Assembly: GCF_028641065.1 (NCBI RefSeq)
Contig: NW_026575377.1
Coordinates: forward strand, 1 to 51,379
DNA: 51,379 nt
Reading direction: 5' to 3'
DNA from: Leucoraja erinacea
Lineage: Eukaryota
Below, in pieces: positions 6,916 through 43,408 of the stretch. Positions within the stretch are counted from its first letter, which is position 1. Each line of letters begins with the position of its first letter. The position numbers and the translations under genes were made by a program. The notes beneath the pieces are model-generated. The model saw only the letters and a program-made list of their open reading frames with translations. It was not told the DNA's origin and did no database searches.

Positions 6916-8047
6916 TCAGTTGTGTTTCTGCCGTTTCCTGAAGCGTTTGACGTCGGGTGGCCGGTGGGGCCACCACCAACCGCATTGGGGGATTCTCCAC
7001 ACCAGCACCCCCAGGTACCCCGCGCATAGTCACGCACCAACTCAAATTCCACCTGCAACAGGAACATTAGCAGTTCATAGCAAACGTATTTGAGTATAGG
7101 ATCAGGGAGGTTCTACTGCAGTTGAGACCACACCTGGAGTATTGCTTTCAGTTTTGGTCTCCAAATCTGAGGAAGGACATTATTGCCATAGAGGCAGTAC
7201 AGAGAAGGTTCACCAGACTGATTTCTGGGATGTCAGGACTTTCATATGAAGAAAGACTGGATAGACTCGGCTTGTACTCGCTAGAATTTAAGAGATTGAG
7301 GGGGAATCTTATAGAAACTTACAACATTCTTAAAGGGTTGGACAGGCTAGATGTAGGAAGATTGTTCCCGATGTTGGGGAAGTCCACGACAAGGGGTCAC
7401 AGCTTAAGGATAGAGGGGAAATCATTTAGGACCGAGATGAGATTTTTTTTTCACACAGAGAGTGGTGAATCTCTGGAACTCTCTGCCACAGAAGGTAGTT
7501 GAGGCCATTGCATTGGCTGTATTTAAGAGGGAGTTAGATGTGGAACTTGTGTCTAAAGGGATCAGGGGGTATGGAGAGAAGGCAGGTACAGAATACTGAG
7601 TTGGATGATCAGCCACGATCATATCGAATGGCGGTGCAGGCTCGAAGGGCCGAATGGCCTACTCCTGGGCCTATTTTCTATGTTTCTATGAACTGGTTGT
7701 ACAGTACACCTGTGGGGGGAGAGAGGGGGTGGGGTGGAGGGAAGTGGTTGGGAGGAAATAAGGAGAGGTACAATGAGAAGGGGGAGATAACCCTAAACTC
7801 GACCGTGAGATCTCGAAGCTGTTTCCCGCCCTCCCTTCTCTCCCCACCCCATGTCGTCCCCCCCCACTCCCTCTCTCCATCCGTCCCCCTCTCTCCGCCC
7901 CCCATCCCTCAACTTGAGACCCCCTCCCTGTCTCCCCCTCCCCCTCCCCCCCCCCCCCACGGGCTGACGGTCGATGAACTCTAGCCGGTCACGTTCGAGT
8001 TCCCAGAGCCGCACCTGGTCGGTGATGGTGGGAGGCAGCACCGGGGT
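6916..8047 (-). pseudogene. GTF2H4: GTF2H4 (TFIIH p52) remnant: last two exons with intron; last exon split by CR1 and frameshifted
   Basis: Exon 7969-8047 (79 nt, AG/GT bounded) [26 protein letters not shown]; next exon starts 7709 with GVLYNQF and resumes at 7064-6916 as FLLQVEFELVRDYAR..LGVLVW.NPPMRLVV..PTGH.DVKRFRKRQKHN* with frameshifts; matches the recalled vertebrate p52 C-terminus. Confidence 0.9.
7066..7690 (+). mobile_element. CR1 LINE 3' fragment inserted in the GTF2H4 last exon
   Basis: RPHLEYCFQFWSPNLRKDIIAIEAVQRRFTRLI; (TTTCTATG)n tail at ~7675-7690; GAAC at both junctions. Confidence 0.9.
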
Positions 8048-8711
8048 CTGTGGGAGACAAACACAGACTGTGTAAACGGGGAAACCACAGAGACCTCCAT
8101 CCACACTGCACACCCCACACACACTGGGCACAATGAGCAGGAAGGAACTGCAGATGCTGCTTCACGTTGAAGATAGACACATGGAAGGCGGAGCTGCGGG
8201 TTTTCCTGGAACCTGGAATTTCTGCGGGTTTTCAACTGGAACCTGGAACTTCTTACGCACCTATTCTTTGAAACATCCGTTCCAAGGTAAATGTATCTGG
8301 TGTTGAAAGTGGAAAAGCCTCAAACATAATGTAGACACTAAGTTGACGGACTTTAGACCCGGGGGAGCCCGGAGCTCAGGACCCGCCGCCCGCGGCAGCT
8401 GCTGAACCCGCGGGAAGGGAGATTGTTTCAATCTTTATATTTTCACAAAAGTAATTTCTGTTCCGTTGCCGGACGCGGTTAACTGATAAAAAATGAATGG
8501 ATCGACAGACAGCTCTGATTTCAGTTGCTGTTTATTTCACTCTTACCACATTTACATTCCCCCTGGATTTATTTCCGCGCTCACTGGGGTTTCACGAAGC
8601 GGAATTTGGGGTATAAATGGGAGCCGTTCAGCGCCGACCTGTTGTCCACCGGGTTTCTGCACCACAGCCCCTGAACCCCGCTCCTGACGCCGGTCCCGGG
8701 AACCGAGCCTT

Positions 8712-9244
8712 TTACACATCCGGAGCTGAACTGGAGCAGATTCTCAGCCGCTGGTTTTCGTTCCAAGTCCTGAAGAAAGGATAAAGTTTCTCCGTGAATT
8801 TATTCCCAGTGAAGGTGTAGAGATGGGACTTGGTGTCGGCGTCGTAAAATGAAACTGTCCCGGACTCGTAACTGAGATAAACTCCCACCCTCCCAGTGAT
8901 GGGACATGCGGGGAGAGGGGATGGAGGGGAGGTGACTGCTTCAAACACTTCATCAATCCGCCTGATCCTCCAGACTCCAGTCTTTGGGGTCAGGTCGACC
9001 CGTCTCTTCCTCTCCACAGACTCTGCGGCGACTCCCAGACTCCACCACTCACTCCCCGCCACCTCCACCTCCCAGTAATGTCTCCTCGATGTGAATCCCT
9101 CCGATCCCAGCACACACGCCCAGTGTGTAAACCTTTTCCCGGTGTCAGGGAGACTCCTCCGGGTCTGGGTCCATCTCACCGTCTTCCGATCCTCAGACAC
9201 GTCGAGCAGCGGATGCGCTGTTTCCACATCCAGGGTGACGGAGA
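8712..9244 (-). CDS. TRIM last exon: PRY/SPRY (B30.2)
   Basis: [21 protein letters not shown]...[19 protein letters not shown]...[15 protein letters not shown]...LYPFF; minus-strand AATAAA at 8568-8573 and 8531-8536. Confidence 0.95.
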
Positions 9245-40713: not shown

Positions 40714-40760
40714 TCAGGCTGGATCAGAGGAGTTTGATGAGTTTTCCCCGCGCTCCGAGG
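40714..40760 (-). CDS. MHC class I cytoplasmic exon 2 with stop
   Basis: CCGCAG|TSERGENSSNSSDPA-TGA G|GTAGG; Ser-rich tail, 3'UTR in a further exon. Confidence 0.85.
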
Positions 40761-43408
40761 CTGCGGAGGGAAGGAGCGACGTTACACGTCAACTGGCGAC
40801 GCCGTGGGTGCAGTGAGGCGCGGACAGACGGACACGCGCACACACACGAGCACGGGGACACAGGGACTCGCACGGACACGTACACGTGGCGGGGACGCGC
40901 ACAGACGGTCACAGCGCAGACACGTGGACAGATACGCAAGGGTCACACTGACGCGCACAAAAATACACGGGCACACACGGACACGAGCAGGAGCACACGG
41001 ACACGCGCACAGACACACACGGACACGCGCAGACACACACGGACACGAGCAGGAGCACACGGACACGCGCACAGACACACATGGGCATGCGCACAGACAC
41101 ACATGGGCATGCGCAGACACAGACACAGTACTTACTCTTGGTGGCATTGTAGCCGCTCTTCCCCGCTGTAAAACACAGAGACAGTTGTCAACCCTCAGCT
41201 CTCAACCCAATCACACAGCGGACACGGGTTGGGCTGTGACCGGGAAGAGTGGTACAAGAGCTGGGCCCGGCTCCCACACTGGCCTCCACCCCCACATCCC
41301 ATCGCCCCCCCCCCACACCGGCCCCCACACCCCCCCCGGCCCCCTCCCCCCCCCCCCCCCACACCGCCCCCCCCCCCCCCACACCGGCCCCCACCCCCAC
41401 ACCGGCCCCCAACCCCACACCGGCTCCCACCCCCCACCCACACCGGCCCCCACCCCACACCGGCCCCCACCCCACACCGGCCCCCACCCCACACCGCCCC
41501 CCCCCCCCCACCCACACCGGCCCCCACCCCCACACCGGCCCCCACCCCACACCGGCTCCCACCCCCCCACCACACCCCCCCCCACACCCACACCGGCTCC
41601 CACACCCACACCGGCCCCCACACCCACACCGGCTCCCACACCCACACCCACCCACACCCACACCACCCCCCCCCCCCCCCCACACCGGCTCCGACGACAC
41701 CCGCACAGAGATGTCCCGGGGGGGGGGTGGGGGATATGGCGGGGTGAGGGAGAGTGAGGGGAGACGGGGGAAAGGTGTGAGGAGACACAGGGTAGGGGAT
41801 GGAGGGGGAGGAGGAGGGGAGGGACGGGTCGGAGGCGATGAGGAGGGAGAGAGAGATGGGGGAGTGAGGTGGGAGTGAGGGTGGTGAGGACGGGAGAAGG
41901 TGAGATGGAGGGGGATGGAGGGGATGGAGGGGAGAGAGGTGGAGGGGATGGGGGAGATGGAGGGGGAGATGGAGTGGAGGGGGAGATGGAGGGGGGGGGA
42001 TGGAGTGGAGGTGGAGATGGAGGGGGAGATGGAGGGGAGGGTGAGATGGAGGGGAGATAGGGGAGGGGAGATGGAGGGGGAGATGGGGGGGGTGAGATGG
42101 AGGGGGAGGAGTGTGGGGCAGATTGAGTTGTACTCGGTGTTTCCGCTGGGTCAGGCCACGGGGTGGAGGTGCCCGGAGGATGATGCAGACACATGCGGCG
42201 GGCGGGAGGTCACGTTGACCCGGGGCAGAGCTGCGGTTTGAGGGAGGAGGATTGGAGAATAATCCCCCCTCCCCCGGGGGCTGCAATGTGTTTGCGTTGC
42301 ACGAGGGGTGGGGGAGCAGAGACTCTCAGCCCGATGGATGTCCGGCCCGAGCTGCCATGCAGAGAACCAACGGCCAAGAGCCGGCAAATGGGTGCAATGT
42401 CCACGGGCCCCTGACGGGCAGACACGGACACGGTGGGCCGAAGGGCCTGATACTGTGTTGTCTGGACCCCCCGTGTGCTCCTACCCCCGCGTGGCAGAAG
42501 GGGGCGGGCGGAGAGAGGTTGAGACGGGGGTCTGGGGAGGGAGCGGGGAGGAGACGGGAGACAGAGGGAACAACGTGACGTCTTGTATCAGAAGAGGCGG
42601 GGGTCGGGGGTCGGGGGGTCGGGGGGGGGGGGGGGGGGGGTTGAGGAGAGGACGCCCCTCCACTGTCTCCCCCCCCCACTCCTACCTTGTTTCTTCTTCC
42701 AGTAGAGGACTCCCCCCACGACAGCGGCCACCACCAGCACCAGGACAACGAGCACCAGGACAATGGTCTTCACGGTGCTGCCCGACTTGCGGACTGTCCC
42801 AGATTCACAAACACAGGCGGTTGAGAGACAGAGACCGGGTCACGCATACCCCTCTTCCCCCCCAATCATCCTTCCCCTAGTCTCACTCACCCCCCTCCCC
42901 TTCTCACCCCCCCTCTCTCTCCCGAGGCGCTTCCCTCCTCATCCACATGCCCTGAGCGCTACCCCACTCCTCCTCACCAACTCTCCCGCCCTCCCCCATC
43001 GCATCCCCCCCCCCCCCCCCTCCAATCTCCCGCTCTCCCCCTTCCCTCACCCAGTCCTCTATTCCCTAACCCTCCCCTTTGCTCTCTCCGATCTCCCTCC
43101 CCCCCCCCCCCCCCCCCCCCCCACCCCCCCCCGCCCGCACTCACCCAGGAAGACCTCGAGGGGCTCGGACAGCCCCGGGTGCTCCACACGACAGGAGAGC
43201 GGGGCGGTGTCCCCGGACTCCACGTGGGCCCAGCGGCGCTGCTGGAAGGTGCCGTCGTGGTTGGGCAGCGTCCCGTGGGAGCGGCTCTCATCCAGGACCA
43301 GGCCGTCCCGCACCAGGTTCACCTCGATGGAGCGCGGGTAGAAGCCCGTGGTGAAACACCACACGCGGCTCCCATCCCCCGACAGGAAGATGCTCACCTC
43401 CGGCTGAA
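40714..43408 (-). CDS. MHC class I heavy chain, 3' part (alpha3, TM, cytoplasmic exons)
   Basis: Four phase-1 GT-AG exons give ..QPEVSIFL..WCFTTGFYPRSIEV..LPNHDGTFQ..SCRVEHPGL / VRKSGSTVKTIVLVLVVLVLVVAAVVGGVLYWKKKQ / AGKSGYNATK / TSERGENSSNSSDPA*. Confidence 0.92.
40820..42115. repeat. Intronic low-complexity arrays (GCACACGGACAC-like, CCCCACACCGG-like, GGAGATGGAG-like)
   Basis: Short degenerate tandem units at ~40820-41125, ~41300-41700 and ~41880-42110. Confidence 0.85.
41136..41165 (-). CDS. MHC class I cytoplasmic exon 1, 30 nt
   Basis: TTTACAG|..AGKSGYNATK..|GTAAGT; contains the conserved tail Tyr. Confidence 0.85.
42686..42793 (-). CDS. MHC class I connecting peptide/TM exon, 108 nt
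   Basis: Hydrophobic helix followed by WKKKQ; AG/GTAGG. Confidence 0.88.
43145..43408 (-). CDS. MHC class I alpha3 (C1-set Ig) exon, 264 nt
   Basis: C..TGFYP, LPNHDGTFQ, CRVEH motifs; CCCCACAG acceptor, GTGAG donor. Confidence 0.93.

What the first reader, a model, noticed from the sequence alone, without database searches (positions are those of the whole stretch)
6916..43408. MHC-like linkage: class I, TRIM-B30.2, GTF2H4 remnant and GPCR within 37 kb, all on one strand
Seen: a class I gene, a PRY/SPRY TRIM gene, a GTF2H4 fragment and a GPCR pseudogene, all co-oriented. Known: in human, GTF2H4 and TRIM10/15/26/31/39/40 lie in the MHC class I region, and GPCR (olfactory) clusters lie in the extended class I region. 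Inference: this is part of a cartilaginous-fish MHC or a block duplicated from it, suggesting ancient class I-TRIM linkage or a co-duplicating class I/TRIM/GPCR cassette.
Basis: partly seen in the sequence, partly recalled or inferred. Interest (0 to 1): 0.8.

Follow-up and report, generated by a model that had tools for sequence, protein, structure and literature searches.

The report
Skate MHC patchwork of duplicated pieces
This skate scaffold carries the tail end of an immune antigen-presenting gene, a dead receptor gene, an intact TRIM gene and a broken scrap of a housekeeping gene, and it is likely a patchwork made by repeated copying inside the skate's MHC immune region rather than an ancient gene order.

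Summary
All four parts are real and on the minus strand: an intact 3' half of a class I gene, a GPR139-like pseudogene (not olfactory), an intact 471-aa TRIM-B30.2 gene and a dead two-exon GTF2H4 tail. The window is a whole unplaced skate scaffold, so MHC location is inferred. The class I alpha-3 exon is 98% identical to that of the class Ia gene linked to TAP and PSMB8, and the source GTF2H4 keeps its MHC neighbour SH3BP5L. It is not one four-part cassette: none of 30 other contigs examined (mostly in part) holds all four. Two smaller units recur: class I plus GPCR (8 of 10 class I contigs) and GTF2H4 tail plus TRIM (6 of 9, always tail-to-tail). The TRIM-GTF2H4 adjacency looks recent: sawfish and white shark lack it, and the B30.2 exon falls in an elasmobranch-only clade, apart from tetrapod TRIM39. 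TRIM-MHC linkage and Ia-like duplicates are already published. Not found in my literature searches: the class I-GPCR duplicon, the scattered GTF2H4 tails, and an MHC-resident GPR139-like subfamily across sharks and rays. Moderate interest.

The parts
43145..43408 (-). MHC class I alpha-3 (C1-set) exon of a class Ia-like gene; open frame
   Evidence: 4 differences in 262 bases from the TAP-linked gene on C1256 and 4 in 230 from that on C1416
42686..42793 (-). class I transmembrane exon, of the type shared with C293, C1000, C1679, C1159, C76
   Evidence: 91-98% to those copies, 82% over a partial match to the TAP-linked genes
41136..41165 (-). class I cytoplasmic exon 1
40714..40760 (-). class I last coding exon with stop
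43433..45817 (.). 13-14-bp satellite (about 177 copies) in the intron upstream of alpha-3, shared with class I paralogues; several paralogous contigs end within a few kb of it
   Evidence: contig lengths
34232..34301 (-). GPR139-like GPCR coding exon 1
   Evidence: tblastn with P0136
28985..29882 (-). GPR139-like GPCR coding exon 2; pseudogene (stop shared with C1555 and C198; private 1-bp and 15-bp deletions)
24595..43408 (-). class I-GPCR duplicon: multi-copy block, collinear in C1555 and C1159, rearranged in C76, C801, C1633, C1034, C198
20868..21278 (-). TRIM exon 1 (start codon, RING, B-box)
20354..20768 (-). TRIM exons 2 and 3 (20768-20673, 20587-20354; coiled coil)
18999..19239 (-). TRIM exons 4 and 5 (19239-19217, 19117-18999)
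   Evidence: same exons seen in paralogue C447
8712..9244 (-). TRIM exon 6, PRY-SPRY (B30.2), with stop
8188..8221 (.). junction between the TRIM 3' flank and the GTF2H4-tail unit
   Evidence: TRIM flank homology ends at 8222 (C1757, C1702), tail-side homology at 8187 (C570); one contig of run X1 spans 8030-8333
7969..8047 (-). GTF2H4 penultimate exon remnant, donor site damaged; its 5' breakpoint is shared with C570
6916..7709 (-). GTF2H4 last exon remnant (7709-7690 and 7061-6916), split by a high-copy repeat and frameshifted
3173..6783 (.). 3' flank of the tail unit, collinear with C986 at 91-94%

Best explanation
The scaffold is likely a piece of the skate MHC's multigene periphery, built by successive segmental duplications that joined a class Ia-like gene plus GPR139-like receptor unit, a TRIM-B30.2 gene and a dead GTF2H4 tail. 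Shown: each part has close paralogues on other unplaced contigs, and two sub-units recur (class I with GPCR; GTF2H4 tail with TRIM, or with GPCR). Shown: the one full-length GTF2H4 found has a TRIM tail-to-tail at its 3' end, and its usual downstream neighbours RBM4 and PPP1R11 sit on another contig amid TRIMs. Inferred steps: (1) in the skate lineage a TRIM array expanded into the short GTF2H4-RBM4 interval; (2) duplications starting there carried off the GTF2H4 3' end, non-functional from the start; (3) one such tail was joined downstream of a GPCR, the breakpoint shared by the window and C570; (4) a TRIM gene came to lie between GPCR and tail, and a class I-GPCR duplicon supplies the right-hand half. 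Repeat-mediated unequal recombination is the likely engine. Predicted products: a RING E3-type TRIM with a B30.2 binding domain, and a class Ia-like heavy chain if its alpha-1/2 exons lie beyond the scaffold end. The GPCR and GTF2H4 pieces are passengers.
For: Class I: closest alpha-3 paralogues on C1256 99%, C1679 95%, C1416 95%, C1159 94%, C76 92%, C293 91%. C1416 carries a PSMB8-type exon, a TAP2-type exon, a second ABC-transporter gene and a second proteasome hit within 130 kb of its class I gene, and two GPCRs of the same family 26-41 kb from the second proteasome hit. GTF2H4: full-length P0008 on C1218, head-to-head with SH3BP5L, as on the sawfish and white shark MHC chromosomes. Tail pieces occur on 9 contigs including the window; the window copy differs from the intact gene at 30 of 514 aligned sites. 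C1702 has RBM4-like then PPP1R11 on one strand with TRIMs on both sides. Class I-GPCR block collinear in C1555 and C1159; a GPCR stop shared by the window, C1555 and C198 points to copying after inactivation. GPCR hits on class I contigs: 14 of ranks 2-75 against 1 of ranks 76-150 (descriptive only). Nearest named GPCRs lie on a record of the same length as GTF2H4 in Heterodontus (21 of 24) and Rhincodon (6 of 6) (co-location inferred from equal length). Sawfish chr34 lists class I, TRIM39/A33-like, GPR139-like and gtf2h4 together.
Against: No direct placement: the window, C1416, C1218 and C1702 are separate unplaced contigs, and no overlap joins C1218 to the start of C1702. A class II beta search found nothing, though the control rang nowhere either. 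The interval 21.3-24.6 kb between GPCR unit and TRIM has no low-copy match in the fetched contigs, so that join rests on the assembly alone. GPR139-like genes also lie on chromosome-sized contigs (27 of 149 hits), so the family as a whole is not confined to the MHC. The contigs were chosen because they matched one part, and most were fetched in part. Sharing of derived sites among the tails is weak, so the order of steps 2-4 is loosely constrained. C1256 is 93-97% collinear with C1416, so some 'copies' may be alleles.
Confidence: 0.78

Rival explanations
1. The block was copied out of the MHC and now lies on another chromosome, like the chicken Rfp-Y region (comparison).
For: The scaffold is unplaced. 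Three GPCR paralogues at 56-58% lie on chromosome-sized C30.
Against: PMC10751288 reports no class Ia or Ib gene outside the elasmobranch MHC. The same GPCR family sits beside the class Ia core on C1416, and the TRIM array abuts MHC framework genes.
Confidence: 0.09
2. The scaffold is an assembly chimera joined between the GPCR unit and the TRIM, so class I and TRIM are not neighbours here.
For: 21.3-24.6 kb has no paralogous support; the region is repeat-rich and multi-copy.
Against: That interval is low-copy and has no N run. Three N runs have collinear flanks in paralogues. The TRIM-tail junction is crossed by one contig of a public run (may be the source sample). C986 and C570 independently show GPCR followed by tail on one strand.
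Confidence: 0.06
3. One four-part class I/GPCR/TRIM/GTF2H4 cassette duplicates as a unit.
For: All four parts are multi-copy at similar divergence, roughly 6-12%. C986 holds three of the four.
Against: 0 of 30 other contigs hold all four, and none holds class I with a tail. The TRIM is tail-to-tail with the GTF2H4 end in 6 of 6 other cases and co-oriented only here.
Confidence: 0.04
4. The order is a relic of an ancestral class I-TRIM-GTF2H4 arrangement shared with the human class I region.
For: TRIM-B30.2 genes are tied to the MHC in mammals, birds and fish. Tetrapod TRIM39 is among the nearer non-elasmobranch B30.2 hits, about 52%.
Against: The GTF2H4 piece is a 6%-diverged copy. In sawfish gtf2h4 is followed after 6.6 kb by an RBM4B-like gene and lies 10 Mb from class Ia. 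The B30.2 exon groups with elasmobranch TRIMs and butyrophilins (100/100), apart from TRIM39.
Confidence: 0.03

Closest known systems
Elasmobranch MHC-Ia-like genes near the class Ia gene (Verissimo et al. 2023, PMC10751288)
   Same: Extra Ia-like copies in variable number, described as surrounded by multiple 'zinc finger protein genes'. The sawfish table lists TRIM39/A33-like, GPR139-like, class I and gtf2h4 on one chromosome.
   Different: The main text has 0 occurrences of TRIM, GTF2H4, GPR or B30.2. No class I-GPCR duplicon or GTF2H4 tails are described in the parts I read (3 of 7 parts plus term searches). In sawfish and white shark gtf2h4 has no annotated TRIM neighbour.
TRIM-B30.2 clusters of the human class I region and chicken B locus; fish btr/ftr (PMC8813856, PMC3137616)
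   Same: RING-B-box-coiled coil-B30.2 genes expanded in or beside the MHC.
   Different: No one-to-one orthology shown; the skate gene belongs to an elasmobranch-only B30.2 clade.
Human MHC duplicons: RCCX module and class I alpha-block units (recalled, no call)
   Same: Repeated segmental units that carry truncated passenger genes beside immune genes.
   Different: Different content (class Ia-like plus GPR139-like; GTF2H4 tail plus TRIM), independent origin, and copies that are rearranged rather than in orderly tandem.
MHC-linked olfactory receptor clusters of mammals and birds (chicken case in PMC8813856; human case recalled)
   Same: A multigene 7TM family with many pseudogenes on the MHC chromosome.
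   Different: Not olfactory: Pfam 7tm_1 without an olfactory profile, nearest solved structure GPR139 at E 3e-15, two coding exons.

Membership tests
Cartilaginous-fish MHC region | Physical linkage to TAP1/2, PSMB8/9, class II or B2M | tested here: inconclusive
   The window is a whole 51-kb unplaced contig; TAP and PSMB8 lie on C1416; class II beta search empty; B2M not searched
Cartilaginous-fish MHC region | Parts derive from genes that are MHC-resident in mapped elasmobranchs | tested here: met
   Source GTF2H4 beside SH3BP5L as; class I near-identical in alpha-3 to the TAP-linked gene; nearest named B30.2 and GPCR proteins share record lengths with GTF2H4 or with each other
MHC class I heavy-chain gene | C1-set alpha-3, TM and cytoplasmic exons, open and spliceable | tested here: met
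Classical class Ia gene | Alpha-1/alpha-2 with conserved peptide-anchoring residues | not testable with these tools
   Exons not in the scaffold. The paralogue on C1159 (P0004) keeps all eight anchor residues, read by eye with recalled numbering
Classical class Ia gene | Single gene tightly linked to TAP/PSMB | tested here: not met
   TM and tail exons group with at least five non-TAP copies, apart from C1416/C1256; hence Ia-like
Classical class Ia gene | High polymorphism and ubiquitous expression | not tested
   No population or RNA data were laid on this gene
Class IV TRIM (RBCC-B30.2) | RING, B-box, coiled coil and PRY-SPRY in one frame | tested here: met
   471 aa, six exons
Orthologue of tetrapod MHC TRIM39 | Groups with tetrapod TRIM39 rather than with lineage paralogues | tested here: not met
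   B30.2 tree of 30 rows: elasmobranch group 100/100, TRIM39 separate 100/99; B30.2 only; human TRIM10/15/26/27/31/40 not in the tree
Olfactory receptors | Match to the olfactory receptor profile; single coding exon (feature recalled) | tested here: not met
   No olfactory profile at E up to 0.1; two coding exons
GPR139 orthologue | One-to-one orthology and ligand specificity | tested here: inconclusive
   GPR139 is the nearest solved structure of intact relative P0136, but the family gave 1294 first-look candidates in this genome; no tree with vertebrate GPR139/142 was built
Four-part co-duplicating cassette | A second copy with all four parts in order | tested here: not met
   0 of 30 other contigs, 1.76 Mb fetched

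The most novel reading that the evidence does not exclude
Sharks and rays keep an MHC-resident subfamily of orphan GPR139-like receptors that is older than the shark-ray split. In skates it rides in a ~20-kb duplicon with class Ia-like genes because the two work together, the receptors sensing peptides or amino acids tied to class I presentation: a non-olfactory counterpart of the MHC-linked odorant receptor clusters. The linkage and co-duplication are supported here; the functional coupling is untested, and the window's own receptor copy is dead.
Probability: 0.12. Interest if true: 0.78.

Novelty: new variant of a known kind. Interest (0 to 1): 0.42.

Why it matters
The skate MHC in this assembly is scattered over many unplaced contigs. 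The GTF2H4 tails, the class I-GPCR duplicon and the TRIM clade give markers to gather and order them, and they show how class Ia-like genes multiply in a ray lineage. The case also warns against reading human-like gene neighbourhoods as ancestral: class I, TRIM and GTF2H4 appear to have met here by recent rearrangement inside an old MHC chromosome. It names what the published 'zinc finger genes' around Ia-like loci may be (TRIMs, by inference) and points to an MHC-linked receptor family that my searches did not find discussed.

Tried and rejected
Class II beta search (PF00969): 0 matches with a silent control, so uninformative. Earlier findings of the scan: nothing by place or by words. Sequencing runs: no RNA holder listed. 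RNA run X24 gave 137 reads on the B30.2 exon, 96% of them running on unlike the stretch and carrying other alleles, so they come mostly from paralogues and say nothing on this copy's expression. No read evidence was obtained for the GPCR-TRIM interval or for TRIM exons 1-5. PDB search with the broken GPCR's C-terminal part missed GPR139; the intact relative found it. Overlap of C1218 with the start of C1702: none at 95% or more. Pairing the window's alpha-3 with orphan alpha-1/2 exons on C732 or C894: no link found. Tree-like order among GTF2H4 tails: near star-shaped, not resolved. The GPCR enrichment test (Fisher p 0.0003) used a half-way cut, non-independent tandem copies and C1555 added after inspection (12 of 74 without it), so it is descriptive only. 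The coverage figures had no diagonal filter and are not used. In the B30.2 work, rows aligning over fewer than about 145 residues were dropped, the 30 rows were picked from 165 because they had names or came from G000, and both tested groups were named after a first tree was seen. Co-orientation as a signal: rejected (1 in 8). Literature searches for GPR139 in sharks or elasmobranchs found one unrelated paper and none; the library lacks most subscription papers, including the primary papers on shark class Ib lineages.
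Full report
Setting. The window is the whole contig G000:C196 of a 2.19-Gb genome in 1769 contigs. The nearest named proteins come from skates. It has four N runs and many repeats.

The four parts. Class I: alpha-3 43408-43145, TM 42793-42686 and two tail exons have proper splice sites and read in one frame to a stop. Alpha-3 matches Pfam C1-set and, best in PDB, 6lup_A (that this is the nurse shark classical molecule is recalled). Alpha-1/2 are not in the 8 kb left of the scaffold. GPCR: two coding exons with a stop, a 1-bp and a 15-bp deletion. 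Named relatives are mostly 'probable GPR139' of sharks and rays, GPR139 is the nearest solved structure of an intact relative, and no olfactory profile matches. TRIM: six exons, 471 aa, intact, 69% identical without gaps over 465 residues to a Mobula protein. GTF2H4: only the last two exons, with a damaged donor, a repeat insertion and frameshifts. All four on one strand has a 1-in-8 chance.

Is it MHC? (a) Close alpha-3 paralogues lie on seven other contigs. C1416 has class I within 130 kb of PSMB8-type and TAP2-type exons, a second transporter gene and a second proteasome hit, which is the class Ia core of PMC10751288. C1256 is collinear with it at 93-97%. The window's alpha-3 differs from these at 4 sites, but its TM and tail exons group with C293, C1000, C1679, C1159 and C76. 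It is therefore Ia-like, and alpha-3 may have been homogenised with the Ia gene (inferred from few sites). (b) The only full-length GTF2H4 found, P0008 on C1218, is head-to-head with SH3BP5L, as on the white shark and sawfish MHC chromosomes. (c) Two GPCRs of the family lie 26-41 kb from the second proteasome hit on C1416. In Heterodontus 21 of 24 and in Rhincodon 6 of 6 listed relatives sit on a record of the same length as GTF2H4. A sawfish protein with a 76%-identical B30.2 sits on a 19.9-Mb record, consistent with chr34.

Is it a cassette? I fetched 1.76 Mb from 30 other contigs, each chosen for a match to one part or to an MHC marker, most in part. None holds all four parts. Class I and GPCR occur together on 8 of 10 class I contigs. 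Window 25-41 kb is collinear with C1555, 29-50 kb with C1159, and the block is rearranged in five more. The GPCR stop shared with C1555 and C198 points to copying after the gene died. GTF2H4 tail sequence occurs on C1218 and eight other contigs besides the window. Six of these nine have a TRIM tail-to-tail, three have a GPCR nearby (C986 has both), and C143 has neither in the 29 kb seen. The window and C570 share the same 5' breakpoint of the tail, and the window's left flank is collinear with C986; both of those show GPCR then tail on one strand. The window is thus best read as a mosaic of these units.

Is the order ancient? In sawfish gtf2h4 is followed after 6.6 kb by an RBM4B-like gene, ppp1r11 and vars2; white shark has one unnamed gene, then ppp1r11 and vars2. 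In G000, GTF2H4 is followed by TRIMs, and RBM4-like and PPP1R11 lie on C1702 behind a TRIM array and before another TRIM. That C1218 and C1702 are neighbours is inferred; no overlap was found. The window's tail differs from the intact gene at 30 of 514 sites. In a 30-row B30.2 tree the window's exon lies in an elasmobranch-only group with TRIMs and butyrophilins (100/100), apart from tetrapod TRIM39; holding all nine Ig-type rows together is rejected (p-AU 1e-70; groups named after a first tree). So the local order looks recent and confined to skates among the species compared, while loose TRIM-MHC linkage is old and known (PMC3137616 abstract and passages; PMC8813856 passages).

Assembly check. 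Three N runs have collinear flanks in paralogues. The TRIM-tail junction maps to 8188-8221 and is crossed by one 346-base contig of run X1, with 4 mismatches and 6 gaps in 298 letters; runs X8 and X2 list no crossing piece among those shown, and X1 may be the source sample. The interval between GPCR unit and TRIM has neither paralogue nor read support.

Mechanism. Shown: paralogy, sub-units, breakpoints and lesions. Inferred: TRIM expansion into the GTF2H4-RBM4 interval, duplication of the gene tail as a passenger, repeat-mediated unequal recombination, and the order of events. The TRIM is predicted to be an E3-type innate immune protein by family; expression of this copy is not shown.

What I read. 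PMC10751288: parts 1-3 of 7 of the text, term searches, and supplement parts 5 and 16-19 of 98. It reports Ia-like genes surrounded by 'zinc finger protein genes' as unpublished data, and its main text does not name TRIM, GTF2H4 or the GPCRs. All other papers were seen as listings only. Searches returned no title or abstract describing the class I-GPCR unit, GTF2H4 tails or GPR139-like genes of the elasmobranch MHC; subscription papers are not covered. RCCX, alpha-block duplicons, anchor numbering and retroelement class names without a Pfam hit are recalled.

Verdict. A real feature: an MHC-derived duplication mosaic, a new variant of a known kind. It is useful for reconstructing the skate MHC but is not evidence of ancestral gene order. 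Interest 0.42.

Noticed in passing
window 8712-9244; P0276, P0267, P0259, P0281, P0310: B30.2 exons of shark and ray butyrophilins are 56-76% identical to this TRIM's and nest with elasmobranch TRIMs, not with other vertebrates' butyrophilins, which suggests exon sharing or conversion within the elasmobranch MHC. A similar mixing within lineages seemed present in other groups in the quick tree.
   Followed up: partly
G000:C1256 versus C1416:170000-243000: A second class Ia-TAP block, 93-97% collinear: an uncollapsed divergent haplotype or a duplicate; its alpha-2 exon shows a frameshift. C988 holds another TAP-like hit.
   Followed up: partly
window 43145-43408 versus 42686-42793: Alpha-3 is closest to the TAP-linked class Ia genes while TM and tail are of the Ia-like type, a hint of alpha-3 gene conversion.
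   Followed up: partly
G000:C1416:295098-315877: A divergent TRIM-B30.2 gene (43% to the window's domain) lies about 70 kb from class Ia; its nearest PDB matches are TRIM21 and pyrin. It is a better candidate for an old class I-TRIM neighbour than the window's gene.
   Followed up: partly
G000:C1218:9761 (L005): The intact GTF2H4 appears to use a GC donor at its last intron.
   Followed up: no
G000:C1702:357400-362200: Retrovirus-like long open frames (pol-like and envelope-like by eye) between the TRIM array and RBM4; observed only.
   Followed up: no
window 10800-18800: The last TRIM intron is about 9 kb longer than in paralogue C447 and holds an element with an 11-copy 38-bp repeat (11152-11568) and a decayed LTR-retrotransposon-like region (class recalled; no Pfam hit).
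   Followed up: no
window 46905-47782, 38438-38941, 3510-4565: Tc1-type transposase remnants, an SH3/chromodomain retroelement end and a LINE reverse transcriptase frame.
   Followed up: no
G000 genome-wide: Very large families: 1294 first-look candidates for the GPCR and 669 for the B30.2-containing DNA query; all 40 best B30.2 matches are on small contigs.
   Followed up: partly
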